Positions 1-33,899 of a stretch of DNA of 64,000 nucleotides are shown here, piece by piece. This DNA is from the human T2T-CHM13v2.0 reference genome, Homo sapiens. Made by a program: the position numbers and the translations under genes. The notes beneath the pieces were generated by a model. The model was given only the letters and a program-made list of their open reading frames with translations, ran no database searches and was not told the DNA's origin. The stretch covers positions 1,568,001-1,632,000 of the forward strand of contig CP068257.2 in assembly GCA_009914755.4 (NCBI GenBank). The letters are read 5' to 3'. The first letter of the stretch is position 1. Every line of letters starts with the position of its first letter.

Positions 1-3000
1 TATATATTATATACTGTACATAAAATATCAAAGTACCCAAGGTATATATTCTATACTGTACAAAAAATATCAAAGTACCCAAAGCATGTATTATATACTG
101 TACATAAAATATGAAAGTACGTCAAATATATATTTTATACTGTACATAAAATGTCAAAGTACACCAGATATATATTCTATAGTGTACATAATATATCAAA
201 GTACCCAAACTATACATTATATACTGTACATAAAATATGAAATTACATCAAATATATATTATATTAGGTACATAAAATATGAAAGTACATCAAATATAGA
301 TTATATACTGTACATAAAATATCAAATTACCCCAAATATATATTATATACTCTACATGAAATATCAAAGTTCACAAACTATATATTATATACTGTACATA
401 AAATATCCAGGTACCCAAGGTATATGTTCTATACTGTACAAAAAATATCATCGTACCCAAAGCATGTATTATATACTGTATATAAAATATGAAAGTACAT
501 CACATATATATTTTATTCTGTACATAAAATATCAAAGTACACCAGATATATATTCTATAGTGTACATAAAATAACAAAGTACAAAAACTATAAATTTTAT
601 GCTGTACATAAAATATGAAATTACATCAAATATATATTAGTTACATAAAATATGAAACTACATCAAATATAGATTATATACTGTACATAAAATATCAATG
701 TACCCCAAATATATATTTTATACTCTACATGAAATATGAAAGTTCACAAACCATATATTATATACTGTACATAAAATATCAAAGTACCCAAGGTATATAT
801 TCTATACTGTACAAAAAATATCAAAGTACCCAAAGCGTGTATCATATACTGTACATAAAATATGAAACTACATCAAATATATATTTTATTCTGTACATAA
901 AATATCAAAGTACACCAGATATATATTCTATAGTGTACATAAAATATCAACGTACCCAAACTATACATTATATACTGTACATAAAATATGAAATTACATC
1001 AAATATATATTATATTAGGTACATAAAATATGAAAGCACATCAAATATAGATTATATACTGTACTTTAAATACCAAAATACCCCAAATATATATTTTATA
1101 CTGTACATCAAATATCAAAGTTCACAAACTATATATTATATACTGTACATAAAATATCAAAGTACCCATGGTATATATTCTATACTGTACAAAAAATATC
1201 AAAGTACCCAAAGCATGTATTATATACTGTACATAAAATATGAAAGTACACCAAATATATATTTTATTCTGTACATAAAATATCAAAGTACACCAGATAT
1301 ATATTCTATAGTGTACATAAAATAACAAAGTACACAAACTGTAAATTATATACTGTACATAAAATATGAAATTACATCAAATATATATTAGGTACATAAA
1401 ATATGAAAGTACATCAAATATAGATTATATACTGTACATATAATATCAATGTACCCCAAATATATATTTTATACTCTACATGAAATATCAAAGTTCACAA
1501 ACCATCCATTATATACTGTACATAAAATATCAAAGTACCCAAGGTATATATTCTATACTGTACAAAAAATATCAAAGTATCCAAAGCATGTATTTTATAC
1601 TGTACATAAAATATGAAAGTACATCAAATATATATTTTATTCTGTTCATAAAATATCAAAGTACACCAGATATATATTCTATAGTGTACATAAAATATCA
1701 AAGTACCCAAACTATACATTATATACTGTACATAAAATATGAAATTACATCAAATATATATTAGGTACATAAAATATGAAAGTACATCAAATATAGATTA
1801 TATACTGTACATAAAATATCAAAGTACCCCAAATATATACTCTACATGAAATATCAAAGTTCACAAACTATATGTTATATACTGTACATAAAATATCAAA
1901 GTACCCAAGGTATATATTCTATACTGTACAAAAAATATCAAAGTACCCAAAGCATGTATTATATACTGTACATAAAATATGAAAGTACATCAAATATATA
2001 TTTTATTCTGTACATAAAATATCAAAGTACACCAGATATATATTCTATAGTGTACATAAAATAACAAAGTACACAAACTATAAATTATATACTGTACACA
2101 AAATATGAAATTACATCAAATATATATTAGGTACATAAAATATGAAAGTACATCAAATATAGATTATATACTGTACATAAAATATCAATGTACCCCAAAT
2201 ATATATTTTATACTCTACATGAAATATCAAAGTTCACAAACCATATATTGTATAATGTACATAAAATATCAAAGTACCCAAGGTATATATTCTATACTGT
2301 ACAAAAAATATCAAATTACCCAAAGCATGTATTATATACTGTACATAAAATATGAAAGTACATCAAATATATATTTTATTCTGTACATAAAATATCAAAG
2401 TACACCAGATATATATTCTATAGTGTACATAAAATATCAAAGTACCCAAACTATGCATTATACACTGTACATAAAATATGAAATTACATCAAATATATAT
2501 TATGTTAGGTACATAAAATATGAAAGTACATCAAATATAGATTATATACTGTACATAAAATATCAAATTACCCCAAATATATATTATATACTCTACATGA
2601 AATATCAAAGTTCACAAACTATATATTATATACTGTACATAAAATATCAAAGTACCCAAGGTATATATTCTATACTGTACAAAAAATATCAAATTATCCA
2701 AACATGTATTATATACTGTATATAAAATATGAAAATACCTTAAATATATATTTTATTCTGTACATAAAATATCAAAGTACACCAGATATATATTCTATAG
2801 TGTACATAAAATAACAAAGTACGCAAACTATAAATTATATACTGTACATAAAATATGAAATTACATCAAATATATATTAGGTACATAAAATATGAAAGTA
2901 CATCAAATATAGATTATATACTGTACATATAATATCAATGTACCCCAAATATATATTTTATACTCTACATGAAATATCAAAGTTCACAAACCATACATTA

Positions 3001-4390
3001 TATACTGTACATAAAATATCAAAGTACCCAAGGTATATATTCTATACTGTACAAAAAATATCAAAGTACCCAAAGCATGTATTATATACTGTACATAAAA
3101 TATGAAAGTACATCAAATATATATTTTATTCTGTACATAAAATATCAAAGTACACCAGATATATATTCTATAGTGTACATAAAATAACAAAGTACACAAA
3201 CTATAAATTATATACTGTACATAAAATATGAAATTACATCAAATATATATTAGGTACATGAAATATGATAGTACATCATATATAGATTATATACTGTACA
3301 TAAAATATCAATGTACCCCAAATATATATTTTATACTCTACATGAAATATCAAAGTTGACAAACCATATATTATATAATGTACATAAAATATCAAAGTAC
3401 CCAAGGTATATATTCTATACTGTACAAAAAATATCAAATTACCCAAAGCATTTATTATATACTGTACATAAAATATGAAAGTACATCAAATATATATTTT
3501 ATTCTGTACATAAAATATCAAAGTACACCAGATATATATTCTATAGTGTACATAAAATATCAAAGTACCCAAACTATACATTATATACTGTACATAAAAT
3601 TTGAAATTACATCAAATATATATTATATTAGGTACATAAAATATGAAAGTACATCAAATATAGATTATATACTGTACATAAAATATCAAAGTGCCCCAAA
3701 TATATATTATATACTCTACATGAAATATCAAAGTTCACAAACTATATATTATATACTGTACATAAAATATCAAAGTACCCAAGGTATATATTCTATACTG
3801 TACAAAAAATATCAAAGTATCCAAAGCATGTATTATATACTGTATATAAAATATGAAAGTACATTAAATATATATTTTATTCTGTACATAAAATATCAAA
3901 GTACACCAGATATATATTCTATAGTGTACATAAAATAACAAAGTACACAAACTATAAATTATATACTGTACATAAAATATGAAATTACATCAAATATATA
4001 TTAGGTACATAAAATATGAAAGTACATCAAATATAGATTATATACTGTACATATAATATCAAACTACCCCAAATATATATTTTATACTCTACATGAAATA
4101 TCAAAGTTCACAAACCATACATTATATACTGTACATAAAATATCAAAGTACCCAAGGTATATATTCTATACTGTACAAAAAATATCAAAGTACCCAAAGC
4201 ATGTATTTTATACTGTATTTAAAATATGAAAGTACATGAAATATATATTTTATACTGTACATAAAATATCAAAGTACACCAGATATGTATTCTATAGTGT
4301 ACATAAAATATCAAAGTTCCCAAAGTATACATTATATACTGTACATAAAATATGAAATTACATCAAATATATATTAGGTACATAAAATAT

Positions 4391-4768
4391 GAAAGTACAT
4401 CAAATATAGATTATATACTGTACATTAAATACCAAAGAACCCCAAATATATATTATATACTCTACATGAAATATCAAAGTTCACAAACTATATATTATAT
4501 ACTGTACATAAATTATCAAAGTACCCAAGGTATATATTCTATACTGTACAAAAAATATCAAAGTACCCAAAGCATGTATTATATACTGTACATAAAATAT
4601 GAAAGTACATCAAATATATATTTTATTCTGTACATAAAATATCAAAGTACACCAGATATATATTCTATAGTGTACATAAAATATCAAAGTACCCAAACTA
4701 TACATTATATACTGTACATAAAATATGAAATTACATCAAATATATATTATATTAGGTACATAAAATAT
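4391..4768 (+). repeat. Example of one complete 378-bp (type A) HOR unit of nine 42-bp monomers a to i.
   Basis: Monomer boundaries read from the sequence are a 4391-4432, b 4433-4474, c 4475-4516, d 4517-4558, e 4559-4600, f 4601-4642, g 4643-4684, h 4685-4726 and i 4727-4768. The next monomer a starts at 4769 (gaaagtacatcaaatataga…). In the open frame this is 9 x 14 aa = 126 aa per HOR (ESTSNIDYILYIKY / QSTPNIYYILYMKY / QSSQTIYYILYIKY / QSTQGIYSILYKKY / QSTQSMYYILYIKY / ESTSNIYFILYIKY / QSTPDIYSIVYIKY / QSTQTIHYILYIKY / EITSNIYYIRYIKY). Confidence 0.9.
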
Positions 4769-5482
4769 GAAAGTACATCAAATATAGATTATATACTGTA
4801 CATAAAATATCAAAGTACCCCAAATATATATTATATACTCTACATGAAATATCAAAGTTCACAAACTATATATTATATACTGTACATAAAATATCAAAGT
4901 ACCCAAGGTATATATTCTATAATGTACAAAAAATATCAAAGTACCCAAAGCGTGTATTATATACTGTATATAAAATATGAAATTACATCAAATATACATT
5001 TTATTCTGTACATAAAATATCAAAGTACACCAGATATATATTCTATAGTGTACATAAAATATCAAAGTACCCAAACTATACATTATATACTGTACATAAA
5101 ATATGAAATTACATCAAATATATATTATATTAGGTACATAAAATATGAAAGTACATCAAATATAGATTATATACTGTACATTAAATACCAAATTACCCCA
5201 AATATATATTTTATACTGTACATGAAATATCAAAGTTCACAAACTATATATTATATACTGTACATAAAATATCAAAGTACCCAAGGTATATATTCTATAC
5301 TGTACAAAAAATATCAAAGTACCCAAAGCATGTATTATATACTGTACCTAAAATATGAAAGTACTTCAAATATATATTTTATTCTGTACATAAAATATCA
5401 AAGTACACCAGATATATATTCTATAGTGTACATAAAATATCAAAGTACCCAAACTATACATTATATACTGTACATAAAATAT

Positions 5483-5608
5483 GAAATTACATCAAATATA
5501 TATTTTATTCTGTACATAAAATATCAAAGTACACCAGATATATATTCTATAGTGTACATAAAATATCAAAGTACCCAAACTATACATTATATACTGTACA
5601 TAAAATAT
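5483..5608 (+). repeat. Local 126-bp (three-monomer g-h-i) duplication whose junction is a chimeric i/f monomer (gaaattacatcaaatatatattttattctgtacataaaatat).
   Basis: The monomer order read at 5441-5650 is h, i/f-chimera, g, h, i instead of h, i, a. In the 4352..5935 ORF this appears as '…QSTQTIHYILYIKYEITSNIYFILYIKYQSTPDIYSIVYIKYQSTQTIHYILYIKYEITSNIYYIRY…'. Confidence 0.8.
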
Positions 5609-5930
5609 GAAATTACATCAAATATATATTATATTAGGTACATAAAATATGAAAGTACATCAAATATAGATTATATACTGTACATTAAATACCAAAGTAC
5701 CCCAAATATATATTTTATACTGTACATGAAATATCAAAGTTCACAAACTATATATTATATACTGTACATAAATTATCAAAGTACCCAATGTATATATTCT
5801 ATACTGTACAAAAAATATCAAAGTACCCAAAGCATGTATTATATACTGTACCTAAAATATGAAAGTACATCAAATATATATTTTATTCTGTACATAAAAT
5901 ATCAAAGTACACCAGATATATATTCTATAG

Positions 5931-8190
5931 TGTAAATAAAATATCACAGTACCCAAACTATACATTAAATACTGTAAATATATTATGAAATTACATCAAA
6001 TATATTTTATATTTGCTACATAAAATATGAAACTACATCAAATATAGATTATATAGTGTACATTAAATACCAAAGTACCCCAAATATATATTTTATACTG
6101 TACATGAAATATCAAAGTTCACAAACTATATATTATATACTGTACATAAATTATCAAAGTACCCAAGGTATATATTCTATACTGTACAAAAAATATCAAA
6201 TTACCCAAAGCTTGTATTATATACTGTACATAAAATATGAAAGTATATCAAATATATATTTTATTGTGTACATAAAATATCAAAGTACACCAGATATATA
6301 TTCTATAGTGTACATAAAATAACAAAGTACACAAACTATACATTATATACTGTACATAAAATATGAAATTACATCAAATATATATTAGGTACATAAAATA
6401 TGAAAGTACATCAAATATAGATTATATACTGTACATAAAATATCAATGTACCCCAAATATATATTTTATACTATACATGAAATATCAAAGTTCACAAACT
6501 ATATATTATATACTGTACATAAAATATCAAAGTACCCAAGGTATATATTCTATACTGTACAAAAAATATCAAAGTAACCAAAGCATGTATTATATACTGT
6601 ATATAAAATATGAAAGTACATCAAATATATATTTTATTCTGTACATAAAATATCAAAGTACACCAGATATATATTCTATAGTGTACATAAAATATCAAAG
6701 TACCCAAAATATACATTATATACTGTACATAAAATATGAAATTACATCAAATATATATTATATTAGGTACATAAAATATGAAAGTACATCAAATATAGAT
6801 TATATACTGTACATTAAATACCAAAGTACCCCAAATATATATTTTATACTGTACATGAAATATCAAAGTTCACAAACTATATATTATATACTGTACATAA
6901 ATTATCAAAGTACCCAATGTATATATTCTATACTGTACAAAAAATATCAAAGTACCCAAAGCATGTATTATATACTGTACCTAAAATATGAAAGTACATC
7001 AAATATATATTTTATTCTGTACATAAAATATCAAAGTACACCAGATATATATTCTATAGTGTAAATAAAATATCACAGTACCCAAACTATACATTAAATA
7101 CTGTAAATATATTATGAAATTACATCAAATATATTTTATATTTGCTACATAAAATATGAAAGTACATCAAATATAGATTATATAGTGTACATTAAATACC
7201 AAAGTACCCCAAATATATATTTTATACTGTACATGAAATATCAAAGTTCACAAACTATATATTATATACTGTACATAAATTATCAAAGTACCCAAGGTAT
7301 ATATTCTATACTGTACAAAAAATATCAAATTACCCAAAGCTTGTATTATATACTGTACATAAAATATGAAAGTATATCAAATATATATTTTATTGTGTAC
7401 ATAAAATATCAAAGTACACCAGATATATATTCTATAGTGTACATAAAATAACAAAGTACACAAACTATACATTATATACTGTACATAAAATATGAAATTA
7501 CATCAAATATATATTAGGTACATAAAATATGAAAGTACATCAAATATAGATTATATACTGTACATAAAATATCAATGTACCCCAAATATATATTTTATAG
7601 TATACATGAAATATCAAAGTTCACAAACCATATATTGTATACTGTACATAAAATATCAAAGTACCCAAGGTATATGTTCTATACTGTACAAAAAATATCA
7701 AAGTACCCAAAGCATGTATTATATACTGTACATAAAATATGAAAGTACATCAAATATATATTTTATTCTGTACATAAAATATCAAAGTACACCAGATATA
7801 TATTCTATAGTGTACATAAAATAACAAAGTACACAAACTATAAATTATATACTGTACATAAAATATGAAATTACATCAAATATATATTAGGTACATAAAA
7901 TATGAAAGTACATCAAATATAGATTATATACTGTACATAAAATATCAATGTACCCCAAATATATATTTTATACTCTACATGAAATACCAAAGTTCAGAAA
8001 CCATATATTATATACTGTACATAAAATATCAAAGTACCCAAGGTATATATTCTATACTGTACAAAAAATATCAAAGTACCCAAAGCATGTATTATATACT
8101 GTACATAAAATATGAAAGTACATCAAATATATATTTTATTCTGTACATAAAATATCAAAGTACACCAGATATATATTCTATAGTGTACAT
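5931..8190. repeat. Tandem duplication of a three-HOR block of about 1129 to 1130 bp (copies at about 5931-7060 and 7061-8190).
   Basis: Identical 88-aa artefact ORFs lie at 6056..6322 and 7185..7451 (offset 1129). The MKLHQ starts at 6363 and 7492 have the same offset. A distinctive degenerate monomer pair 'tgtaaataaaatatcacagtacccaaactatacattaaatactgtaaatatattatgaaattacatcaaatatattttatatttgctac' starts at about 5931 and about 7061. Confidence 0.8.
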
Positions 8191-11100
8191 AAAATATAAA
8201 AGTACCCAAACTATACATTATATACTGTACATAAAATATGAAATTACATCAAATATATATTATATTAGGTACATAAAATATGAAAGTACATCAAATATAG
8301 ATTATATATTGTACATAAAATATCAAAGTACCCCAAATATATATTATATACTCTACATGAAATATCAAAGTTGACAAACTATATATTATATACTGTACAT
8401 AAAATATCAAAGTACCCAAGGTATATATTCTATAATGTACAAAAAATATCAAAGTACCCAAAGCGTGTATTATATACTGTATATAAAATATGAAATTACA
8501 TCAAATATATATTTTATTCTGTACATAAAATATCAAAGTACACCAGATATATATTCTATAGTGTACATAAAATATCAAAGTACCCAAACTATACATTATA
8601 TACTGTACATAAAATATGAAATTACATCAAATATATATTATATTAGGTACATAAAATATGAAAGTACATCAAATATAGATTATATACTGTATATTAAATA
8701 CCAAAGTACCCCAAATATATATTTTATACTGTACATGAAATATCAAAGTTCACAAACTATATATTATATACTGTACATAAAATATCAAAGTACCCAAGGT
8801 ATATATTCTATACTGTACAAAAAATATCAAAGTACCCAAAGCATGTATTATATACTGTACCTAAAATATGAAAGTGCATCAAATATATATTTTATTCTAT
8901 ACATAAAATATCAAAGTACACCAGATATATATTCTATAGTGTACATAAAATATCAAAGTACCCAAACTATACATTATATACTGTACATAAAATATGAAAT
9001 TACATCAAATATATATTATATTAGGTACATAAAATATGAAAGTACATCAAATATAGATTATACACTGTACATAAAATATCAAAGTACCCCAAATATATAT
9101 TATATACTCTACATGAAATATCAAACTTCACAAACAATATATTATATACTGTACATAAAATAAAGTCCCCAAGGTATATATTCTATACTGTAGAAAAAAT
9201 ATCAAAGTACCCAAAGCATGTATTATATACTGTATATAAAATATGAAAGTACATCAAATATATATTTTATTCTGTACATAATATATCAAAGTACACCAGA
9301 TATATATTCTATAGTGTACATAAAATAACAAAGTACAAAAACTATAAATTATATACTGTACATAAAATATGAAATTACATCAAATATATATTAGGTACAT
9401 AAAATATGAAAGTACATCAAATATAGATTATATACTGTACATAAAATTTCAATGTACCCCAAATATATATTTTATACTCTACATGAAATATCAAAGTTCA
9501 CAAACCATATATTATATACTGTACATATAATATCAAAGTACCCAAGGTATATATTCTATACTATACAAAAAATATCAAAGTACCCAAAGCATGTATTATA
9601 TACTGTACCTAAAATATGAAAGTACATCAAATATATATTTTATTCTGTACATAAAATATCAAAGTACACCAGATATATATTCTATAGTGTACACAAAATA
9701 TCAAAGTACCCAAACTATACATTATATACTGTACATAAAATATGAAATTACATCAAATATATTTTATAATAGATACATAAAATATGAAAGTACATCAAAT
9801 ATAGATTATACACTGTACATTAAATACCAAAGTACCCCAAATATATATTTTATACTGTACATGAAATATCAAACTTCACAAATTATATATTATATAGTGT
9901 ACATATAATATCAAAGTACCCAAGGTATATATTCTATACTGTACAAAAAATAACAAAGTACCAAAAGCATGTATAATATACTGTACATAAAATATGAAAG
10001 TACATCAAATATATATTTTATTATGTACATAAAATATCAAAGTACACCAGATATATATTCTATAGTGTACATAAAATATCAAAGTACCCAAACTATACAT
10101 TATATACTGTAAATAAAATATGAAATTACAACAAATATATTTTACATTAGGTACATAAATTATGAAAGTACATCAAATATAGATTATATACTGTACATTA
10201 AATACCAAAGTACCCCAAATATATATTTTATACTGTACATGAAATATCAAAGTTCACAAACCATATATTATATACTGTACATAAATTATCAAAGTACCCA
10301 AGGTATATATTCTATACAGTACAAAAAATATCAAAGTACCCAAAGCATGTATTTTATACTGTACTTAAATATGAAAGTACATCAAATATATATTTTATTC
10401 TGTACATAAAATATCAAAGTACACCAGATATATATTCTATAGTGTAAATAAAATATCACAGTACCCAAACTATACATTAAATACTGTAAATATATTATGA
10501 AATTACATCAAATATATTTTATATTTGGTACATAAAATATGAAAGTACATCAAATATAGATTATATACTGTACATTAAATACCAAAGTACCCCAAATATA
10601 TATTTTATACTGTACATGAAATATGAAAGTTCACAAACTATATATTATATGCTGTACATAAATTATCAAAGTACCCAAGGTATATATTCTATACTGTACA
10701 AAAAATATCAAATTACCCAAAGCTTGTATTATATACTGTACATAAAATATGAAAGTATATCAAATATATATTTTATTGTGTACATAAAATATCAAAGTAT
10801 ACCAGATATATATTCTATAGTGTACATAAAATAACAAAGTACACAAACTATACATTATATACTGTACATAAAATATGAAATTACATCAAATATATATTAG
10901 GTACATAAAATATGAAAGTACATCAAATATAGGTTATATACTGTACATAAAATATCAATGTACCCCAAATATATATTTTATACTATACATGAAATATCAA
11001 AGTTCACAAACCATATATTGTATACTGTACATAAAATATCAAAGTACCCAAGGTATATGTTCTATACTGTACAAAAAATATCAAAGTACCCAAAGCATGT

Positions 11101-14100
11101 ATTATATACTGTACATAAAATATGAAAGTACATCAAATATATATTTTATTCTGTACATAAAATATCAAAGTACACCAGATATATATTCTATAGTGTACAT
11201 AAAATAACAAAGTACACAAACTATAAATTATATACTGTACATAAAATATGAAATTACATCAAATATATATTAGGTACATAAAATATGAAAGTACATCAAA
11301 TATAGATTATATACTGTACATAAAATATCAATGTACCCCAAATATATATTTTATACTCTACATGAAATACCAAAGTTCAGAAACCATATATTATATACTG
11401 TACATAAAATATCAAAGTACCCAAGGTATATATTCTATACTGTACAAAAAATATCAAAGTACCCAAAGCATGTATTATATACTGTACATAAAATATGAAA
11501 GTACATCAAATATATATTTTATTCTGTACATAAAATATCAAAGTACACCAGATATATATTCTATAGTGTACATAAAATATCAAAGTACCCAAACTATACA
11601 TTATATACTGTACATAAAATATGAAATTACATCAAATATATATTATATTAGGTACATAAAATATGAAAGTACATCAAATATAGATTATATACTGTACATA
11701 AAATATCAAAGTACCCCAAATATATATTATATACTCTACATGAAATATCAAAGTTCACAAACTATATATTATATACTGTACATAAAATATCAAAGTACCC
11801 AAGGTATATATTCTATAATGTACAAAAAATATCAAAGTACCCAAAGCGTGTATTATATACTGTATATAAAATATGAAATTACATCAAATATATATTTTAT
11901 TCTGTACATAAAATATCAAAGTACACCAGATATATATTCTATAGTGTACATAAAATATCAAAGTACCCAAACTCTACATTATATACTGTACATAAAATAT
12001 GAAATTACATCAAATATATATTATATTAGGTACATAAAATATGAAAGTACATCAAATATAGATTATATACTGTACATTAAATACCAAAGTACCCCAAATA
12101 TATATTTTATACTGTACATGAAATATCAAAGTTCACAAACTATATATTATATACTGTACATAAAATATCAAAGTACCCAAGGTATATATTCTATACTGTA
12201 CAAAAAATATCAAAGTACCCAAAGCATGTATTATATACTGTATGTAAAATATGAAAGTACATCAAATATATATTTTATTGTGTACATAAAATATCAAAGT
12301 ACACCAGATATGTATTCTATAGTGTACATAAAATATCAAATTACCCAAACTATACATTATATACTGTACAGAAAATATGAAATTACAGCAAATATATATT
12401 ATATTAGGTACATAAAATATGAAAGTACATCAAATATAGATTATATACTGTACATTAAATACAAAAGTACCCCAAATATATATTTTATACTGTACATGAA
12501 ATATCAAAGTTCACAAACTATATATTATATACTGTACATAAAATATCAAAGTACACAAGGTATATATTCTATACTGTACAAAAAATATCAAAGTACCCAA
12601 AGCATGTATTATAAACTGTACATAAAATATGAAAGTACATCAAATATATATTTTATTCTGTACATAATATATCAAAGTACACCAGATATATATTCTATAG
12701 TGTACATAAAATAACAAAGTACAAAAACTATAAATTATATACTGTACATAAAATATGAAATTACATCAAATATATATTAGGTACATAAAATATGAAAGTA
12801 CATCAAATATAGATTATATACTGTACATAAAATTTCAATGTACCCCAAATATATATTTTATACTCTACATGAAATATCAAAGTTCTCAAACCATATATTA
12901 TATACTGTACATATAATATCAAAGTACCCAAGGTATATATTCTATACTATACAAAAAATATCAAAGTACCCAAAGCATGTATTATATACTGTACCTAAAA
13001 TATGAAAGTACATCAAATATATATTTTATTCTGTACATAAAATATCAAAGTACACCAGATATATATTCTATAGTGTACACAAAATATCAAAGTACCCAAA
13101 CTATACATTATATACAGTACATAAAATATGAAATTACATCAAATATATTTTATATTAGGTACATAAAATATGAAAGTACATCAAATATAGATTATACACT
13201 GTACATTAAATACCAAAGTACCCCAAATATATATTTTATACTGTACATGAAATATCAAACTTCACAAATTATATATTATATAGTGTACATATAATATCAA
13301 AGTACCCAAGGTATATATTCTATACTGTACAAAAAATAACAAAGTACCAAAAGCATCTATAATATACTGTACATAAAATATGAAAGTACATCAAATATAT
13401 ATTTTATTGTGTACATAAAATATCAAAGTACACCAGATATATATTCTATAGTGTACATAAAATATCAAAGTACCCAAACTATACATTATATACTGTAAAT
13501 AAAATATGAAATTACAACAAATATATTTTACATTAGGTACATAAATTATGAAAGTACATCAAATATAGATTATATACTGTACATTAAATACCAAAGTACC
13601 CCAAATATATATTTTATACTGTACATGAAATATCAAAGTTCACAAACCATATATTATATACTGTACATAAATTATCAAAGTACCCAAGGTATATATTCTA
13701 TACTGTACAAAAAATATCAAAGTACCCAAAGCATGTATTATATACTGTACTTAAATATGAAAGTACATCAAATATATATTTTATTCTGTACATAAAATAT
13801 CAAAGTACACAAGATATATATTCTATAGTGTAAATAAAATATCACAGTACCCAAACTATACATTAAATACTGTAAATATATTATGAAATTACATCAAATA
13901 TATTTTATATTTGGAACATAAAATATGAAAGTACATCAAATATAGATTATATACTGTACATTAAATACCAAAGTACCCCAAATATATATTTTATACTGTA
14001 CATGAAATATGAAAGTTCACAAACTATATATTATATGCTGTACATAAATTATCAAAGTACCCAAGGTATATATTCTATACTGTACAAAAAATATCAAATT

Positions 14101-17000
14101 ACCCAAAGCTTGTATTATATACTGTACATAAAATATGAAAGTATATCAAATATATATTTTATTGTGTACATAAAATATCAAAGTACACCAGATATATATT
14201 CTATAGTGTACATAAAATAACAAAGTACACAAACTATACATTATATACTGTACATAAAATATGAAATTACATCAAATATATATTAGGTACATAAAATATG
14301 AAAGTACATCAAATATAGGTTATATACTGTACATAAAATATCAATGTACCCCAAATATATATTTTATACTATACATGAAATATCAAAGTTCACAAACCAT
14401 ATATTGTATACTGTACATAAAATATCAAAGTACCCAAGGTATATGTTCTATACTGTACAAAAAATATCAAAGTACCCAAAGCATGTATTATATACTGTAC
14501 ATAAAATATGAAAGTACATCAAATATATATTTTATTCTGTACATAAAATATCAAAGTACACCAGATATATATTCTATAGTGTACATAAAATAACAAAGTA
14601 CACAAACTATAAATTATATACTGTACATAAAATATGAAATTACATCAAATATATATTAGGTACATAAAATATGAAAGTACATCAAATATAGATTATATAC
14701 TGTACATAAAATATCAATGTACCCCAAATATATATTTTATACTCTACATGAAATACCAAAGTTCAGAAACCATATATTATATACTGTACATAAAATATCA
14801 AAGTACCCAAGGTATATATTCTATACTGTACAAAAAATATCAAAGTACCCAAAGCATGTATTATATACTGTACATAAAATATGAAAGTACATCAAATATA
14901 TATTTTATTCTGTACATAAAATATCAAAGTACACCAGATATATATTCTATAGTGTACATAAAATATCAAAGTACCCAAACTATACATTATATACTGTACA
15001 TAAAATATGAAATTACATCAAATATATATTATATTAGGTACATAAAATATGAAAGTACATCAAATATAGATTATATACTGTACATAAAATATCAAAGTAC
15101 CCCAAATATATATTATATACTCTACATGAAATATCAAAGTTCACAAACTATATATTATATACTGTACATAAAATATCAAAGTACCCAAGGTATATATTCT
15201 ATAATGTACAAAAAATATCAAAGTACCCAAAGCGTGTATTATATACTGTATATAAAATATGAAATTACATCAAATATATATTTTATTCTGTACATAAAAT
15301 ATCAAAGTACACCAGATATATATTCTATAGTGTACATAAAATATCAAAGTACCCAAACTCTACATTATATACTGTACATAAAATATGAAATTACATCAAA
15401 TATATATTATATTAGGTACATAAAATATGAAAGTACATCAAATATAGATTATATACTGTACATTAAATACCAAAGTACCCCAAATATATATTTTATACTG
15501 TACATGAAATATCAAAGTTCACAAACTATATATTATATACTGTACATAAAATATCAAAGTACCCAAGGTATATATTCTATACTGTACAAAAAATATCAAA
15601 GTACCCAAAGCATGTATTATATACTGTACCAAAAATATGAAAGTACATCAAATATATATTTTATTCTATACATAAAATATCAAAGTACACCAGATATATA
15701 TTCTATAGTGTACATAAAATATCAAAGTACCCAAAGTATACATTATATACTGTACATAAAATATGAAATTACATCAAATATATATTATATTAGGTACATA
15801 AAATATGAAAGTACATCAAATATAGATTATACACTGTACATAAAATATCAAAGTACCCCAAATATATATTATATACTCTACATGAAATATCAAACTTCAC
15901 AAACAATATATTATATACTGTACATAAAATAAAGTCCCCAAGGTATATATTCTATACTGTAGAAAAAATATCAAAGTACCCAAAGCATGTATTATATACT
16001 GTATATAAAATATGAAAGTACATCAAATATATATTTTATTCTGTACATAATATATCAAAGTACACCAGATATATATTCTATAGTGTACATAAAATAACAA
16101 AGTACAAAAACTATAAATTATATACTGTAGATAAAATATGAAATTACATCAAATATATATTAGGTACATAAAATATGAAAGTACATCAAATATAGATTAT
16201 ATACTGTACATAAAATTTCAATGTACCCCAAAAATATATTTTATACTCTACATGAAATATCAAAGTTCTCAAACCATATATTATATACTGTACATATAAT
16301 ATCAAAGTACCCAAGGTATATATTCTATACTATACAAAAAATATCAAAGTACCCAAAGCATGTATTATATACTGTACCTAAAATATGAAAGTACATCAAA
16401 TATATATTTTATTCTGTACATAAAATATCAAAGTACACCAGATATATATTCTATAGTGTACACAAAATATCAAAGTACCCAAACTATACATTATATACAG
16501 TACATAAAATATGAAATTACATCAAATATATTTTATATTAGGTACATAAAATATGAAAGTACATCAAATATAGATTATACACTGTACATTAAATACCAAA
16601 GTACCCCAAATATATATTTTATACTGTACATGAAATATCAAACTTCACAAATTATATATTATATAGTGTACATATAATATCAAAGTACCCAAGGTATATA
16701 TTCTATACTATACAAAAAATAACAAAGTACCAAAAGCATCTATAATATACTGTACATAAAATATGAAAGGACATCAAATATATATTTTATTGTGTACATA
16801 AAATATCAAAGTACACCAGATATATATTCTATAGTGTACATAAAATATCAAAGTACCCAAACTATACATTATATACTGTAAATAAAATATGAAATTACAT
16901 CAAATATATTTTATATTAGGTACATAAAATATGAAAGTACATCAAATATAGATTATATACTGTACATTAAATACCAAAGTACCCCAAATATATATTTTAT
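7061..17000. repeat. Super-repeat of about 3.39 kb (nine HORs) present in three tandem copies (about 7.06-10.44, 10.44-13.83 and 13.83-17.0 kb, the last diverging toward its end).
   Basis: Near-identical artefact ORFs recur at 3383 to 3386-bp offsets: 7492→10875→14261, 7865→11248→14634, 9591→12977→16360 and 10616→14002. Rare variants are shared only at these offsets ('SNIGYILY', 'MKYESSQTIYYMLYINY', 'IVYTKYQ…NIFY'). The 'tgtaaataaaatatcacag…' marker lies at about 7061, 10444 and 13832. Confidence 0.82.
7494..7866 (+). repeat. Example of the 373-bp (type B) HOR variant. Monomer i is 37 bp because of a 5-bp deletion (…atatatattaggtac… instead of …atatatattatattaggtac…). The preceding monomer h is usually the variant …aaaataacaaagtacacaaactataaatta…, which contains TAA.
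   Basis: The ORF starts at 7492 and 7865 (both MKLHQIYIRYIKY…) are exactly 373 bp apart. The same 373-bp spacing occurs at 10875/11248, 14261/14634, 33024/33397, 35654/36027, 46227/46600/46973/47346, 49979/50352 and 53369/53742. Confidence 0.88.
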
Positions 17001-20000
17001 ACTGTACATGAAATATCAAAGTTCACAAACCATATATTATATACTGTACATAAATTATCAAAGTACCCAAGGTATATATTCTATACTGTACAAAAAATAT
17101 CAAAGTACCCAAAGCATGTATTATATACAGTACATAAAATATGAAAGTACATCAAATATATATTTTATTCTGTACATAAAATATCAAAGAACACCAGATA
17201 TATATTCTATAGTGTACATAAAATAACAAAGTACACAAACTATAAATTATATACTGTACATAAAATATGAAATTACATCAAATATATATTAGGTACATAA
17301 AATATGAAAGTACATCAAATATAGATTATATACTGTACATAAAATATCAATGTACCCCAAATATATATTTTATACTCTACATGAAATACCAAAGTTCACA
17401 AACCATATATCATATACTGTACATAAAATATCAAAGTACCCAAGGTATATATTCTATACTGTACAAAAAATATCAAAGTACCCAAAGCATGTATTATATA
17501 CTGTACCTAAAATATGAAAGTACATCAAATATATATTTTATTCTGTACATAAAATATCAAAGTAAACCAGATATATATTCTATAGTGTACATAAAATATC
17601 AAAGTACCCAAACTATACATTATATACTGTACATAAAATATGAGATTACATCAAATATATATTATATTAGGTACATAAAATATGAAAGTACATCAAATAT
17701 AGATTATACACTGTACATAAAATATCAAAGTACCCCAAATATATATTATATACTCTACATGAAATATCAAAGTTCACAAACTATATATTATATACTGTAC
17801 ATAAAATAAAGTCCCCAAGGTAAATATTCTATACTGTAGAAAAAATATCAAAATACCCAAAGCATGTATTATATACTGTATATAAAATATGAAAGTACAT
17901 CAAATGTATATTTTATTCTGTACATAATATATCAAAGTACACCAGATATATATTCTATAGTGTACATAAAATAACAAAGTACAAAAACTATAAATTATAT
18001 ACTGTACATAAAATATGAAATTACATCAAATATATATTAGGTACATAAAATATGAAAGTACATCAAATATAGATTATATACTGTACATAAAATTTCAATG
18101 TACCCCAAATATATATTTTATACTCTACATGAAATATCAAAGTTCACAAACCATATATTATATACTGTACATAAAATATCAAAGTACCCAAGGTATATAT
18201 TCTATACTATACAAAAAATATCAAAGTACCCAAAGCATGTATTATATACTGTACCTAAAATATGAAAGTACATCAAATATATATTTTATTCTGTACATAA
18301 AATATCAAAGTACACCAGATATATATTCTATAGTGTACATAAAATATCAAAGTACCCAAACTATACATTATATACTGTACATAAAATATGAAATTACATC
18401 CAATATATTTTATATTAGGTACATAAAATATGAAAGTACATCAAATATAGATTATATACTGTACATTAAATACCAAAGTACCCCAAATATATATTTTATA
18501 CTGTACATGAAATATCAAAGTTCACAAACTATATATTATATACTGTACATATAATATCAAAGTACCCAAGGTATATATTCTATACTGTACAAAAAATAAC
18601 AAAGTACCAAAAGCATGTATAATATACTGTACATAAAATATGAAAGTACATCAAATATATATTTTATTCTGTACATAAAATATCAAAGTACAACAGATAT
18701 ATATTCTATACTGTACATAAAATATCAAAGTACCCAAACTATACATTATATACTGTAAATAAAATATGAAATTACATCAAATATATTTTATATTAGGTAC
18801 ATAAAATATGAAAGTACATCAAATATAGATTATATACTGTACATTAAATACCAAAGTACCCCAAATATATATTTTATACTGTACATGAAATATCAAAGTT
18901 CACAAACTATATATTATATACTGTACATAAATTATCAAAGTACCCAAGGTGTATATTCTATACTGTACAAAAAATATCAAAGTACCCAAAGCATGTATTA
19001 TATACTGTACATAAAATATGAAAGTACATCAAATATATATTTTATTCTGTACATAATATATCAAAGTACACCAGATATATATTCTATAGTGTACATAAAA
19101 TAACAAAGTACACAAACTATACATTATATACTGTACATAAAATATGAAATTACATCAAATATATATTAGATACATAAAATATGAAAGTACATCAAATATA
19201 GATTATATACTGTACATAAAATATCAATGTACCCCAAATATATATTTTATACTATACATGAAATATCAAAGTTCACAAACCATATATTGTGTACTGTACA
19301 TAAAATATCAAAGTACCCAAGGTATATGTTCTATACTGTACAAAAAATATCAAAGTACCCAAAGCATGTATTATATACTGTACATAAAATATGAAGGTAC
19401 ATCAAATATATATTTTATTCCGTTCATAAAATATCAAAGTACACCAGATATATATTCTATAGTGTACATAAAATATCAAAGTACACAAACTATACATTAT
19501 ATACTCTACATAAAATATGAAATTACATCAAATATATATTATATTAGGTACATAAAATATGAAAGTACATCAAATATAGATTATATACTGTACATTAAAT
19601 ACCAAAGTACCCCAAATATATATTTTATACTGTACATGAAATATCAAAGTTCACAAACTATATATTACATACTGTACATAAAATATCAAAGTACCCAAGG
19701 TATATATTCTATACTGTACAAAAAATATCAAAGTACCCAAAGCATGTATTATATACTGTACATAAAATATGAAATTACATCAAATATATATTTTATTCTG
19801 TACATAAAATATCAAAGTACACCAGATATATATTCTATAGTGTACATAAAATATCAAAGTACCCAAACTATACATTATATACTGTACATAAAATATGAAA
19901 TTACATCAAATATTTATTATATTAGGTACATAAAATATGAAAGTACATCAAAGATAGATTATATACTGTACATTAAATACCAAAGTACCCCAAATATATA

Positions 20001-23000
20001 TTTTATACTGTACATGAAATATCAAAGTTCACAAACTATATATTATATACTGTACATAAAATATCAAAGTACCCAAGGTATATATTCTATACTGTACAAA
20101 AAATATCAAAGTACCCAAAGTATGTATTATATACTGTACCTAAAATATGAAAGTACATCAAATATATATTTTATTCTGTACATAAAATATCAAAGTACAC
20201 CAGATATATATTCTATAGTGTACATAAAATATCAAAGTACCCAAACTATACATTATATACTGTACATAAAATATGAAATTACATCAAATATATATTATAT
20301 TAGGTACATAAAATATGAAAGTACATCAAGTATAGATTATACACTGTACATAAAATATCAAAGTACCCCAAATATATATTATATACTCTACATGAAATAT
20401 CAAAGTTCACAAACTATATATTATCTACTGTACATAAAATATCAAAGTACCCAAGGTATATATTCTATACTGTAGAAAAAATATCAAAGTACCCAAAGAA
20501 TGTATTATATACTGTACATAAAATATGAAATTACATCAAATATATATTTTATTCTGTACATAAAATATCAAAGTACACCAGATATATATTCTATAGTGTA
20601 CATAAAATATCAAAGTACCCAAACTATACATTATATACTGTACATAAAATATGAAATTACATCAAATATTTATTATATTAGGTACATAAAATATGAAAGT
20701 ACATCAAATATAGATTATATACTGTACATTAAATACCAAAGTACCCCAAATATATATTTTATACTGTACATGAAATATCAAAGTTCACAAACTATATATT
20801 ATATACTGTACATAAAATATCAAAGTACCCAAGGTATATATTCTATACTGTACAAAAAATATCAAAGTACCCAAAGCATGTATTATATACTGTACCTAAA
20901 ATATGAAAGTACATCAAATATATATTTTATTCTGTACATAAAATATCAAAGTACACCAGATATATATTCTATAGTGTACATAAAATATCAATGTACCCAA
21001 ACAATACATTATATACTGTACATAAAATATGAAATTACATCAAATATATTTTATATTAGGTACATAAAATATGAAAGTACATCAAATATAGATTATACAC
21101 TGTACATAAAATATCAAAGTACCCCAAATATATATTATATACTCTACATGAAATATCAAAGTTCACAAACTATATATTATATACTGTACATAAAATAAAG
21201 TCCCCAAGGTATATATTCTATACTGTAGAAAAAATATCAAAGTACCCAAAGCATGTATTATATACTGTATATAAAATATGAAAGTACATCAAATATATAT
21301 TTTATTCTGTACATAATATATCAAAGTACACCAGATATATATTCTATAGTGTACATAAAATATCAAAGTACCCAAACTATACATTATATACTGTACATAA
21401 AATATGAAATTACATCAAATATATATTATATTAGGTACATAAAATATGAAAGTACATCAAATATAGATTATATACTGTACATTAAATACCAAAGTACCCC
21501 AAATATATACTTTATACTGTACATGAAATATCAAAGTTCACAAACTATATATTATATACTGTACATAAAATATCAAAGTACCCAAGGTATATATTCTATA
21601 CTGTACAAAAAATATCAAAGTACCCAAAGCATGTATTATATACTGTACCTAAAATATGAAAGTACATCAAATATATATTTTATTCTGTACATAAAATATC
21701 AAAGTACACCAGATATATATTCTATAGTGTACATAAAATATCAAAGTACCCAAACTATACATTATATACTGTACATAAAATATGAAATTACATCAAATAT
21801 ATATTATATTAGGTACATAAAATATGAAAGTACATCAAATATAGATTATACACTGTACATAAAATATCAAAGTACCCCAAATATATATTATATACTCTAC
21901 ATGAAATATCAAAGTTCACAAACTATATATTATATACTGTACATAAAATAAAGTCCCCAAGGTATATATTCTATACTGTAGAAAAAATATCAAAGTACCC
22001 AAAGCATGTATTATATACTGTATATAAAATATGAAAGTACATCAAATATATATTTTATTCTGTACATAATATATCAAAGTACACCAGATATATATTCTAT
22101 AGTGTACATAAAATAACAAAGTACAAAAACTATAAATTTTATACTGTACATAAAATATGAAATTACATCAAATATATATTAGGTACATAAAATATGAAAG
22201 TACATCAAATATAGATTATATACTGTACATAAAATTTCAATGTACCCCAAATATATATTTTATACTCGACATGAAATATCAAAGTTCACAAACCATATAA
22301 TATATACTGTACATAAAATATCAAAGTACCCAAGGTATATATTCTATAATGTACAAAAAATATCAAAGTACCCAAAGCATGTATTATATACTGTACATAA
22401 AATATGAAATTACATCAAATATATATTTTATTCTGTACATAAAATATCAAAGTACACCAGATATATATTCTATAGTGTACATAAAATATCAAAGTACCCA
22501 AACTATACATTATATACTGTACATAAAATATGAAATTACATCAAATATTTATTATATTAGGTACATAAAATATGAAAGTACATCAAATATAGATTATATA
22601 CTGTACATTAAATACCAAAGTAACCCAAATATATATTTTATACTGTACATGAAATATCAAAGTTCACAAACTATATATTATATACTGTACATAAAATATC
22701 AAAGTACCCAAGGTATATATTCTATACTGTACAAAAAATATCAAAGTACCCAAAGCATGTATTATATACTGTACCTAAAATATGAAAGTACATCAAATAT
22801 ATATTTTATTCTGTATATAAAATATCAAAGTACACCAGATATATATTCTATAGTGTACATAAAATATCAAAGTACCCAAACTATACATTATATACTGTAC
22901 ATAAAATATGAAATTACATCAAATATATATTATATTAGGTACATAAAATATGAAAGTACATCAAATATAGATTATACACTGTACATAAAATATCAAAGTA

Positions 23001-32000: not shown

Positions 32001-33899
32001 TTATATACTCTGCATGAAATATCAAAGTTCACAAACTATATATTATATACTGTACATAAAATATCAAAGTACCCAAGGTATATATTCTATACTGTACAAA
32101 AAATATCAAAGTACCCAAAGCATGTATTATATACTGTATATAAAATATGAAAGTACATCAAATATATATTTTATTCTGTACATAAAATATCAAAGTACAC
32201 CAGATATATATTCTATAGTGTACATAAAATAACAAGGTACAAAAACTATAAATTATATAATGTACATAAAATATGAAATTACATCAAATATATATTAGGT
32301 ACATAAAATATGAAAGTACATCAAATATAGATTATATACTGTACATAAAATATCAATGTACCCCAAATATATATTTTATACTCGACATGAAATACCAAAG
32401 TTCACAAACCATATAATATATACTGTACATAAAATATCAAAGTACCCAAGGTATGTATTCTATACTGTACAAAAAATATCAAAGTACCCAAAGCATGTAT
32501 TATATACTGTACATAAAATATGAAAGTACATCAAATATATATTTTATTCTGTACATAAAATATGAAAGTACACCAGATATATATTCTATAGTGTACATAA
32601 AATATCAAAGTACCCAAACTATACATTATATCCTGTACATAAAATATGAAATTACATCAAATATATATTATATTAGGTACATAAAATATGAAAGTACATC
32701 AAATATAGATTATATACTGTACATTAAATACCAAAGTAACCCAAATATATATTTTATACTGTACATGAAATTTCAAAGTTCACAAACTATATATTATATA
32801 CTGTACATAAAATATCAAAGTACCCAAGGTATATATTCTATACTGTGCAAAAAATATCAAAGTACCCAAAGCATGTATTATATACTGTACATAAAATATG
32901 AAAGTACATCAAATATATATTTTATTCTGTACATAAAATATCAAAGTACACCAGATATATATTCTATAGTGTACATAAAATAACAAAGTACACAAAGTAT
33001 AAATTTTATACTGTACATAAAATATGAAATTACATCAAATATATATTAGGTACATAAAATATGAAAGTAGATCAAATATAGATTATATACTGTACATAAA
33101 ATATCAAAGTACCCCAAATATATATTATATACTCTACATGAAATATCAAAGTTCACAAACTATATATTATATACTGTACATAAAATATCAAAGTACCCAA
33201 GGTATATATTCTATACTGTACAAAAAATATCAAAGTACCCAAAGGATGTATTGTATACTGTACATAAAATATGAAAGTACATCAAATATATATTTTATTC
33301 TGTACATAAAATATCAAAGTACACCAGATATATATTCTATAGTGTACATAAAGTAACAAAGTTCACAAACTATACATTATATACTGTACATAAAATATGA
33401 AATTACATCAAATATGTATTAGGTTCATAAAATATGAAAGTACATCAAATATAGATTATATACTGTACATAAAATATCAATGTACCCCAAATATATATTT
33501 TATACTCTACATGAAATATCAAAGTTCACAAACCATATATTATATACTGTACATAAAATATCAAAGTACCCAAAGTATATATTCTATACTATACAAAAAA
33601 TATCAAACTACCCAAAGCATGTATTATATACTGTACATAAAATATGAAAGTACATCAAATATATATTTTATTCTGTACATAAAATATCAAAGTACACCAG
33701 ATATATATTCTATAGTGTACATAAAATATCAAAATACCCAAACTATACATTATATACTGTACATAAAATATGAGATTACATCAAATATATATTATATTAG
33801 GTACATAAAATATGAAAGTACATCAAATATAGATTATATACTGTACATAAAATATCAAAGTACCCCAAATATATATTATATACTGTACATGAAATATCA

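What the first reader, a model, noticed from the sequence alone, without database searches (positions are those of the whole stretch)
5931..17000. Nested amplification: a 1.13-kb three-HOR block duplicated, then incorporated into a 3.39-kb nine-HOR super-repeat present in three copies
The rare double-degenerate monomer 'tgtaaataaaatatcacagtacccaaactatacattaaatactgtaaatatattatgaaattacatcaaatatattttatatttg[c/g]tac' occurs at about 5931, 7061, 10444 and 13832, with spacing of 1130, 3383 and 3388 bp. The artefact ORFs between these sites are near-identical at the same offsets. This is a third periodicity layer above the HOR and points to very recent unequal sister-chromatid exchange or segmental amplification. 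Differences between super-repeat copies could date the events.
Basis: seen in the sequence. Interest (0 to 1): 0.5.

Follow-up and report, generated by a model that had tools for sequence, protein, structure and literature searches.

The report
Local nine-HOR super-repeat in HSat1A satellite
Inside a long array of the AT-rich 42-bp satellite that matches human satellite 1A, a 3.4-kb block of nine higher-order repeat units was copied in tandem to give three near-identical copies; this is real, but it is the ordinary way satellite arrays grow by out-of-register recombination.

Summary
The 85-base marker occurs exactly four times, at 5931, 7060, 10443 and 13829, giving spacings of 1129, 3383 and 3386 bp. 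HOR units nine apart in 6854-17006 differ by 4.8 bases on average (98.7% identity). Every other lag differs by 18-29 bases (about 94-95%). None of 20000 permutations reached the observed value.

The window is one uninterrupted 42-bp satellite array with a 378-bp nine-monomer HOR. It matches the published description of human HSat1A (SAR).

The "nested" interpretation is only partly right. Each 3.39-kb copy carries one marker, and identity at lag 3 inside the super-repeat is at background level. The 1.13-kb repeat is therefore a separate two-copy event at the left edge: 5488-6470 equals 6617-7599 with 2 mismatches in 983 bp. It is younger than the split of copy 1 from copies 2 and 3, not older.

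Shared derived sites give the order ((c2,c3),c1), which means two sequential steps. One HOR-long patch in copy 2 (12243-12621) was replaced by a variant identical to 51620-52148.

Similar blocks at 99% identity or more, spanning several HORs, occur at many other spacings in the window.

Verdict: real, ordinary and of a known kind, so low interest.

The parts
1..64000 (+). Uninterrupted 42-bp satellite array in one orientation, about 78% A+T, organised in nine-monomer HORs of 378 bp. Length variants: 373 bp (5-bp deletion in monomer 7), 370 bp (an extra 3-bp deletion in monomer 2) and 377 bp.
   Evidence: TRF finds one array of period 42 with 1532.8 copies, plus sub-periods of 17 and 25 bp. Composition and skews are constant across the window. 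HOR spacing counts are 378 x80 and 373 x53.
5931..6015 (+). Marker copy 0: variant of monomers 6-7 that differs from the usual HOR sequence at 8 or more of 85 positions.
   Evidence: Exact 85-mer. It lies 206 bp into the HOR.
5488..6470 (+). Upstream partner (c0) of the 1129-bp two-copy repeat.
   Evidence: It matches 6617-7599 with 2 mismatches in 983 bp, at 5580 and 6033.
6617..7599 (+). Downstream partner of the 1129-bp repeat. It forms the left end of super-repeat copy 1.
   Evidence: It differs from its counterparts in c2 and c3 at 17-18 sites, the same number as c0 does.
7060..10442 (+). Super-repeat copy 1 in marker phase: 3383 bp, nine HORs. The high-identity tract begins about 180-280 bp further left, at about 6780-6880.
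   Evidence: Three-way alignment. HOR units 18-26 match units 27-35 and 36-43 with 0-8 differences, apart from the c2 patch units 31-32 (10-16 differences).
10443..13828 (+). Super-repeat copy 2: 3386 bp.
   Evidence: Only 1 difference from c3 in 10530-12242. Only 1 private site outside the patch.
12243..12621 (+). HOR-long replacement patch in copy 2. It shows 22-23 substitutions plus a 3-bp indel against the same stretch of c1 and c3, which differ from each other at only 3 sites there.
   Evidence: All 21 scored patch alleles exist elsewhere in the window. 12139-12667 is identical to 51620-52148 over 529 bp.
13829..17128 (+). Super-repeat copy 3, about 3300 bp. It ends before the place where a fourth marker would fall (about 17212).
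   Evidence: Differences between c2 and c3 are sparse up to c3 17128 and dense from 17129 onward.
47945..49666 (+). Distant partial relative of the super-repeat, four to five HORs long, about 40 kb downstream.
   Evidence: 8086-9807 matches 47945-49666 with 14 mismatches in 1722 bp (99.2%). c3 14659-15876 matches 47749-48966 with 9 mismatches.
51620..52148 (+). Sequence identical to the copy 2 patch and its margins. It is a candidate donor, or a sibling of the donor, of the patch.
   Evidence: 529-bp exact identity.

Best explanation
The window is an HSat1A-type (SAR) satellite array: a 42-bp monomer and a nine-monomer HOR of 378 bp, with HOR copies about 95% alike.

Between about 6.8 and 17.1 kb, an ordered string of nine distinguishable HOR variants (3.39 kb) was amplified in tandem. 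The cause was homologous recombination between copies of the array misaligned by nine HORs, that is, unequal sister-chromatid or inter-homologue exchange. It happened in two sequential steps. The first produced c1 and the ancestor of c2 and c3. The second duplicated that ancestor after about 7 further substitutions.

Three later events followed:
- About one HOR of c2 (12243-12621) was overwritten by a pre-existing HOR variant. This looks like non-allelic gene conversion; the same sequence lies at 51.6-52.1 kb.
- A short 30-bp tract near the right end of c3 was changed.
- About 1 kb at the left end of c1 and a stretch three HORs upstream became nearly identical. This was either a 3-HOR-register duplication or a conversion tract of about 1 kb, and it produced the 1129-bp marker spacing.

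Shown here: the anatomy, the identities, the shared-derived sites and the mosaic patch. Inferred: the recombination mechanism, the direction of transfer and all timing. The structure has no coding function. It is a by-product of array turnover.
For: Satellite identity:
- TRF gives period 42 with 17- and 25-bp sub-periods and the HOR spacing is 378 bp.
- The published description of HSat1A is a 42-bp unit made of a 17-bp A and a 25-bp B subunit, with a 378-bp 9-mer (PMC9909926; bioRxiv 10.1101/2021.07.12.452052).
- The core of the published HSat1A primer F1 matches 561 sites at 2 mismatches or fewer, with 0 expected by chance.
- A 24-mer from the array hits more than 120 metagenome contigs. Some are labelled human gut or human oral, with best identities of 95-97.6% to the window.

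Super-repeat:
- Differences per HOR are 4.8 at lag 9 and 3.7 at lag 18, against 18-29 at other lags; 0 of 20000 permutations reached this.
- The longest ungapped blocks at 99% or more in the window lie here: 2604 bp at offset 6769 and 2520 bp at offset 3386.

Two steps:
- Outside the patch, c2-c3 differ at 11, c1-c2 at 20 and c1-c3 at 29 of 3005 sites.
- At 7 sites spread over 7242-9971, c2 and c3 share an allele seen nowhere else while c1 has the common allele.

Conversion patch.

The 1.13-kb event is the youngest and is confined to the edge.

The process is general in this array. About 60% of the window lies in exact repeats of 200 bp or more, at many offsets. There are 26 blocks of 900 bp or more at about 99% identity or higher, at spacings of 3 to about 122 HORs.
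Against: - No reads or second haplotype are available, so assembly error cannot be excluded directly.
- The mechanism (unequal crossover, replication-based template switching or rolling circle) leaves no unique signature in one sequence.
- Private changes are unequal: c1 19, c2 1, c3 10 (binomial p = 0.012 for c2 against c3). A simple clock-like two-step model does not predict this.
- The near-identical tract of the 1129-bp repeat is 983 bp, shorter than the period. The next 146 bp differ at 6 sites. A clean tandem duplication would not give this.
- Human origin is inferred from contaminant contigs and from the published description. It was not tested by alignment to a human assembly.
Confidence: 0.75

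Rival explanations
1. A three-HOR block of 1.13 kb duplicated first, and the product was then built into a 3.39-kb unit that was amplified to three copies. The periodicities are truly nested.
For: The markers at 5931 and 7060 are 1129 bp apart, and the second marker heads the first 3.39-kb copy.
Against: - There is one marker per 3.39-kb copy.
- Lag-3 identity inside the super-repeat is at background, 22.1 differences per HOR.
- c0 and c1 differ at 2 of 983 sites, while c1 differs from c2 and c3 at 17-18 of 983. The 1.13-kb pair is therefore younger than the c1|(c2,c3) split.
Confidence: 0.08
2. Single-burst amplification. All three copies arose at once, for example by rolling-circle replication of an excised 3.39-kb circle followed by reinsertion, or by replication slippage or template switching.
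For: There are three head-to-tail copies with a total length very close to 3.0 periods. c2 sits at the centre of the differences with only 1 private site, which resembles a star phylogeny.
Against: Seven dispersed sites carry an allele unique to c2 and c3. Pairwise distances are graded: 11, 20 and 29 of 3005 sites. Both point to two successive events.
Confidence: 0.1
3. Assembly artefact. A false tandem expansion or a mis-join was created when a highly repetitive satellite was assembled.
For: Satellite arrays are the regions most prone to mis-assembly (general knowledge). No read support can be checked here.
Against: - The copies are not identical. They differ by 0.4-1.0%, with phylogenetically consistent shared sites and a mosaic patch.
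- The whole structure is about 10 kb, short enough to be spanned by single long reads (general knowledge).
- Similar blocks occur throughout the window.
Confidence: 0.05
4. Homogenisation by gene conversion alone. An older, diverged nine-HOR periodicity was already present, and repeated long conversion tracts made the three copies alike without any change in copy number.
For: Conversion-like tracts do exist here: the 379-bp patch in c2, the 30-bp cluster in c3, and the 983-bp c0/c1 tract, which is shorter than its 1129-bp period. Nine-HOR spacing recurs at 33.6-38.2 kb with other HOR variants.
Against: - Ungapped near-identity runs for 2.5-2.6 kb, much longer than the conversion tracts seen here.
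- The right flank shows no remnant of the nine-HOR order: it is 96.5% identical to c3, against 97.4% to an unrelated control stretch.
- Lag 9 is not generally favoured outside the region.
Confidence: 0.1

Closest known systems
Human satellite 1A (HSat1A, formerly SAR; classical satellite I) with its 9-mer, 378-bp higher-order repeat
   Same: - A 42-bp monomer with 17-bp and 25-bp sub-periods.
- Extreme A+T content, about 78%.
- A dominant 378-bp nine-monomer period, as reported by NTRprism for CHM13 and GM12878 (PMC9909926; 10.1101/2021.07.12.452052).
- The published primer core matches 561 sites.
   Different: Nothing found here contradicts membership. The chromosome and array, and even the species (human or a close ape), were not determined. 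No direct alignment to the Dfam SAR consensus or to pTRI-6 was possible with these tools.
superHORs, macro-repeats and local expansions in alpha-satellite arrays (CentromereArchitect superHOR; 'zones of recent duplication' and 'NTRs expanding hyper-locally' in the T2T centromere study)
   Same: An ordered string of distinguishable HOR variants is repeated in tandem. Identity at the super-period is higher than between adjacent HORs, and the structure is confined to part of the array. This matches the superHOR concept (PMC8336445) and the local variation in periodicity described in 10.1101/2021.07.12.452052.
   Different: The satellite family is different: a pericentromeric 42-bp HSat1A, not the 171-bp alpha satellite. 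Here the HOR variants differ by point changes and small indels, not by monomer gain or loss. There is no link to kinetochore position.
Classical unequal-crossover model of tandem-array evolution (Smith 1976; cited from my own knowledge, not read here)
   Same: The model predicts spontaneous emergence of longer periodicities, copy-number change in whole-unit steps and a mosaic of recently duplicated blocks. All of these are seen in the window.
   Different: The pure model has no gene conversion. Here at least one HOR-long patch and one 30-bp tract look like conversion.
Local-nested HORs (LN-HORs) as defined for HiCAT
   Same: Hierarchical tandem structure within a satellite array (PMC10053651).
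   Different: LN-HORs are amplifications of a sub-unit inside a HOR. Here the amplified unit is larger than the HOR, and the proposed nesting of 1.13 kb inside 3.39 kb is not found.

Membership tests
HSat1A (SAR) satellite | 42-bp repeat unit composed of alternating 17-bp (A) and 25-bp (B) subunits | tested here: met
   TRF gives a period of 42 over 1-64000, with many local arrays of period 17 and period 25. The definition is taken from PMC9909926.
HSat1A (SAR) satellite | Among the most A+T-rich sequences of the genome | tested here: met
   G+C is 0.21-0.22 in every 2-kb window.
HSat1A (SAR) satellite | Predominant 9-mer (378-bp) higher-order period | tested here: met
   HOR anchor spacings are 378 x80, 373 x53 and 370/377 x14. 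There are nine monomer types, 71-93% alike. This was reported for HSat1A.
HSat1A (SAR) satellite | Sequence similarity to reference HSat1A (Dfam DF0001062, pTRI-6 L01057.1, CHM13 arrays) | tested here: inconclusive
   Only indirect evidence. The published primer core GGTACATAAGATATCAAAG matches 561 sites at 2 mismatches or fewer. Contaminant contigs from human gut and oral metagenomes match at up to 97.6%. No reference sequence was available for alignment.
HSat1A (SAR) satellite | Pericentromeric location on human chromosomes 3, 4 and the acrocentrics | not testable with these tools
   The window holds no non-satellite flank, and no human assembly can be searched.
superHOR / multi-HOR tandem super-repeat | An ordered string of distinguishable HOR variants repeated head to tail at least twice | tested here: met
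   The HOR-variant strings are HCJBADKLQ, HCJBM.KLQ and HCJBADKL. The HOR length pattern 373,373,378,378,378,370/373,378,378,377 repeats.
superHOR / multi-HOR tandem super-repeat | Identity at the super-period exceeds identity between adjacent HORs and at other HOR multiples | tested here: met
   4.8 differences per HOR at lag 9 against 17.8-29 at other lags; 0 of 20000 permutations reached this.
   There is one marker per copy. The lag-3 mean is 22.1 differences per HOR, which is background.
   In the same 983-bp tract, c0-c1 differ at 2 sites, c2-c3 at 6 and c1 against c2 or c3 at 17-18.

The most novel reading that the evidence does not exclude
The three copies do not diverge like a clock. 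The middle copy has 1 private change outside its patch, against 19 and 10 in the outer copies, and the outer copies' changes crowd towards the two edges of the super-repeat. If this is real and general, it would be a direct single-molecule picture of position-dependent homogenisation in a pericentromeric satellite that is not a centromere: interior units kept alike, edge units eroded by exchange with diverged flanks. It could be used to measure conversion tract lengths (about 30 bp, 380-530 bp and about 1 kb here) and their reach (at least 39 kb).
Probability: 0.15. Interest if true: 0.35.

Novelty: already known. Interest (0 to 1): 0.12.

Why it matters
It matters little on its own. It is a clean worked example of how a satellite array builds periodicities above the HOR, and of how conversion patches spoil simple dating. 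It shows that pericentromeric HSat1A behaves like alpha satellite in this respect.

Practical value:
- The marker at 5931, 7060, 10443 and 13829 and the c2+c3-specific variants are unique k-mers. They could tag this part of the array in read mapping or in comparisons between haplotypes.
- Copy number of the 3.39-kb unit is a plausible polymorphism for tracing array haplotypes.

Tried and rejected
- Ungapped autocorrelation understated the 3.39-kb signal, because 3- and 5-bp indels shift the register. I replaced it with gapped comparison of HOR units.
- A regex fuzzy search timed out.
- Megablast with an identity filter returned only the self-hit, because HSPs extend through the whole 95%-identical array. 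I replaced it with a seeded Hamming scan along diagonals.
- I considered that a degenerate fourth copy continues to the right of 17128. This is rejected: 16900-19700 aligns to c3 at 96.5%, worse than to an unrelated control stretch at 97.4%.
- I considered that the left flank (4300-6500) is an older super-repeat copy with internal deletions of 751 bp and 252 bp. It aligns at 98.3% against 96.1% for a control. However, the J-B HOR pair it relies on also recurs at 47.9 kb and 50.5 kb at 99%. I keep this only as a suggestion.
- I considered that the middle copy is a simple crossover chimera, c3-like on the left and c1-like on the right. This is rejected, because in the right part c1-private and c3-private sites interleave, 8 and 8.
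- A literature search for the monomer sequence as text and for '42-bp satellite' found nothing. A viral-contig scan found nothing.
- An independent 35-kb stretch (of a 42-kb contig) from a metagenome, BNJS01002444.1, was examined for the same kind of structure. Its periods of 382, 1143 and similar values point to length noise from indels, so it is not a usable comparison. The marker is absent from all 120 fetched loci, 350 kb in total.
Full report
**What the window is**

Tandem Repeats Finder reports one array of period 42 covering 1-64000 (1532.8 copies, 79% matches). Many local rows have periods of 17 and 25 bp. G+C is 0.21-0.22, and GC and AT skews are constant in every 2-kb window, so the array is uninterrupted and in one orientation.

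I anchored on one monomer type (CATGAAATATCAAAGTTCAC...). This gives 166 anchors spaced 378 bp (80 times), 373 bp (53 times) and 370 or 377 bp (7 times each). The consensus 378-bp unit splits into nine 42-bp monomers that are 71-93% alike (mean 83%). The 373-bp form has a 5-bp deletion in monomer 7, and the 370-bp form has a further 3-bp deletion in monomer 2. HOR copies are about 95% alike: the median is 18 differences per unit over all 11476 pairs.

**Which satellite it is**

A 24-mer from the array hits more than 120 metagenome contigs. Several are explicitly labelled human gut or human oral metagenome, which is best explained as host DNA. The best of these match the window at 95-97.6%.

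The anatomy matches the published description of human satellite 1A (HSat1A, formerly SAR): a 42-bp unit made of a 17-bp A and a 25-bp B subunit, the most A+T-rich fraction of the genome, and a predominant 378-bp 9-mer found by NTRprism in CHM13 and GM12878 (PMC9909926; bioRxiv 10.1101/2021.07.12.452052). The core of a published HSat1A primer matches 561 sites at 2 mismatches or fewer, with none expected by chance.

I could not align the window to a reference HSat1A sequence or to a human assembly. The family assignment is therefore strong but indirect, and the chromosome is unknown.

**Checking the observation**

The 85-base marker occurs exactly at 5931, 7060, 10443 and 13829 and nowhere else. 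The next-closest sites have 6 or more mismatches. The spacings are 1129, 3383 and 3386 bp. The marker is a variant of monomers 6-7.

I cut the window into HOR units and aligned all pairs with gaps. In units 17-43 (6854-17006) the mean differences per HOR are:

| Lag (HOR units) | Mean differences per HOR |
|---|---|
| 9 | 4.8 |
| 18 | 3.7 |
| all others from 1 to 26 | 17.8-29 |
| 3 | 22.1 |

Random draws of HOR units never reached the lag-9 value in 20000 trials (mean 17.8, sd 1.55, minimum 11.8).

The near-identical tract begins at about 6780-6880 and ends at 17128, about three periods. The two longest ungapped blocks at 99% or more in the whole window lie here:
- 7162-9765 matches 13931-16534 (2604 bp, 17 mismatches).
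- 9745-12264 matches 13131-15650 (2520 bp, 12 mismatches).

ORFs recur at the same offsets in each copy. They exist only because 42 bp equals 14 codons.

**Relations among the three copies**

The common span is c1 6984-10364, c2 10367-13750 and c3 13753-17133. Outside one patch (3005 columns), the pairwise differences are as follows:

| Pair | Differences | Percent |
|---|---|---|
| c2-c3 | 11 | 0.37 |
| c1-c2 | 20 | 0.67 |
| c1-c3 | 29 | 0.97 |

Between 10530 and 12242, c2 and c3 differ once.

To polarise the changes, I asked whether each allele, in its 31-base context, occurs anywhere else in the window. At seven sites spread over 7242-9971, c2 and c3 share an allele found nowhere else, while c1 has the common allele. 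This supports the order ((c2,c3),c1) and hence two successive duplications, not one burst. Three conflicting sites lie within 30 bp (c3 16900-16929) and look like one short conversion tract.

**The patch in copy 2**

Over c2 12243-12621, almost exactly one HOR length, c2 differs from both c1 and c3 by 22-23 substitutions and a 3-bp indel. c1 and c3 differ from each other at only 3 sites there. All 21 scored c2 alleles in the patch exist elsewhere in the array. In addition, c2 12139-12667 is identical, base for base, to 51620-52148 (529 bp). This is not mutation. It is replacement by a pre-existing HOR variant, most simply non-allelic gene conversion over about 39 kb or from a homologue. The direction is inferred from the tree: c1 and c3 agree, so c2 changed.

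**The 1.13-kb repeat**

At offset 1129, 5488-6470 matches 6617-7599 with two mismatches in 983 bp. The next 146 bp differ at six sites, and further on an indel breaks the register.

In this tract c0-c1 differ at 2 sites, c2-c3 at 6, and either c0 or c1 differs from c2 or c3 at 17-18. Three conclusions follow:
- The 1.13-kb pair is the youngest relationship.
- It involves only the left end of copy 1.
- It is not repeated inside copies 2 and 3: there is one marker per copy, and lag-3 identity is at background.

The nested reading and the proposed order of events are therefore not supported.

Because the identical tract is shorter than its period, a conversion tract of about 1 kb between HORs three units apart fits at least as well as a clean three-HOR tandem duplication. 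The left kilobase of c1 is also more diverged from c2 and c3 than the rest of c1 (10 of 720 against 13 of 2385 sites, Fisher p = 0.04). This is what transfer from the upstream sequence into c1 would give, but the evidence is weak.

**Flanks and the rest of the window**

The right flank shows no remnant of the nine-HOR order. 16900-19700 aligns to c3 at 96.5%, worse than to an arbitrary control stretch at 97.4%.

The left flank (4300-6500) can be aligned to c2/c3 at 98.3% if gaps of 751 bp and 252 bp are allowed, against 96.1% for a control. However, the HOR pair it depends on recurs elsewhere at 99%, so an older, internally deleted copy on the left is only a suggestion.

The phenomenon is not special to this place. 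About 60% of the window lies in exact repeats of 200 bp or more, at many offsets. There are 26 blocks of 900 bp or more at about 99% identity or higher, at spacings from 3 to about 122 HORs. They include a partial relative of the super-repeat at 47.9-49.7 kb. The 3.39-kb super-repeat is the longest and most regular of these. No single super-period holds across the array (lag profile outside the region).

**Mechanism**

The best explanation is stepwise out-of-register homologous exchange, at a register of nine HORs, with gene conversion superimposed. This is the classical way tandem arrays turn over (the unequal-crossover model, from my own knowledge). It is what the T2T centromere work describes as local, recent expansions and periodicities that vary along an array. 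For alpha satellite it has been formalised as superHORs (PMC8336445).

Rivals:
- A single-burst amplification is disfavoured by the shared-derived sites.
- An assembly artefact is disfavoured by the structured, non-identical copies, but cannot be excluded without reads.
- Homogenisation by conversion alone is disfavoured by the 2.5-kb ungapped tracts.

**Timing**

At a point-mutation rate of 1.2e-8 per base per generation (general knowledge; assumes a human source), differences of 0.2-1.0% correspond to roughly 0.8-4 x 10^5 generations. Times shrink proportionally if satellites mutate faster.

The estimate is unreliable for three reasons:
- Conversion clearly contributes.
- Private changes are unequal: c1 19, c2 1, c3 10 (p = 0.012 for c2 against c3).
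- The private changes cluster towards the two edges of the super-repeat.

That asymmetry is the one thing I cannot fully explain.

**Verdict**

It is wrong about nesting, about the order of events, and about how cleanly the events can be dated. The structure is an ordinary instance of a known process in a known satellite family, so interest is low.

Noticed in passing
window 21400-23352 and 27754-29706: A block of about five HORs repeated at a spacing of 6354 bp (about 17 HORs) with 12 mismatches in 1953 bp (99.4%). It is the third-longest near-identical pair in the window.
   Followed up: partly
window 53845-55608 and 58112-59875; also 56008-57162 and 59776-60930: Another local super-repeat near the right end of the window, at spacings of 4267 bp (about 11.3 HORs, 99.5%) and 3768 bp (10 HORs, 99.2%). 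The HOR-variant strings 'acIdE#efg' and 'bcIdEMfg' repeat at lag 11.
   Followed up: partly
window 33510-45593: A zone of structurally aberrant HORs. Anchor spacings are 755, 1006, 1001, 331 and 420 bp, and extra 25-bp-period rows appear in TRF. These aberrant units themselves recur at 3381, 3953 and 4000 bp; for example 33580-34776 matches 36961-38157 at 99.0%. This is a second nine-HOR spacing built from different HOR variants.
   Followed up: partly
window 8086-9807 and 47945-49666; 4495-5502 and 47867-48874: Long-range near-identity (99.2-99.3%) between multi-HOR blocks 40-43 kb apart. The same ordered HOR variants (J-B-A-D) therefore recur far outside the super-repeat.
   Followed up: partly
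window 5221-5724: One HOR unit is 504 bp, which is 378 + 126 bp, or three extra monomers. In a long-gap alignment it behaves as a composite of parts of three different super-repeat HORs: 5221-5302, 5303-5462 and 5463-5724.
   Followed up: partly
window c1 6984-10364, c2 10367-13750, c3 13753-17133: Private differences are very uneven: c1 19, c2 1, c3 10 outside the patch. In the outer copies they crowd towards the outer edges of the super-repeat. The pattern is not clock-like, and I have no tested explanation for it.
   Followed up: partly
window, whole: Long open reading frames of up to 527 aa (for example 4352-5935) with a 14-residue periodic motif (...YILYIKYQSTQ...). They arise because the 42-bp monomer is a multiple of three and one frame lacks stop codons. 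They are broken wherever the 5-bp deletion of monomer 7 occurs.
   Followed up: yes
loci L012, L013, L079 (metagenome contigs of 6.9-13.7 kb): These contigs carry the satellite 24-mer only at one end. They may be junctions between HSat1A-like sequence and other DNA, or chimeric assemblies. They were not examined.
   Followed up: no
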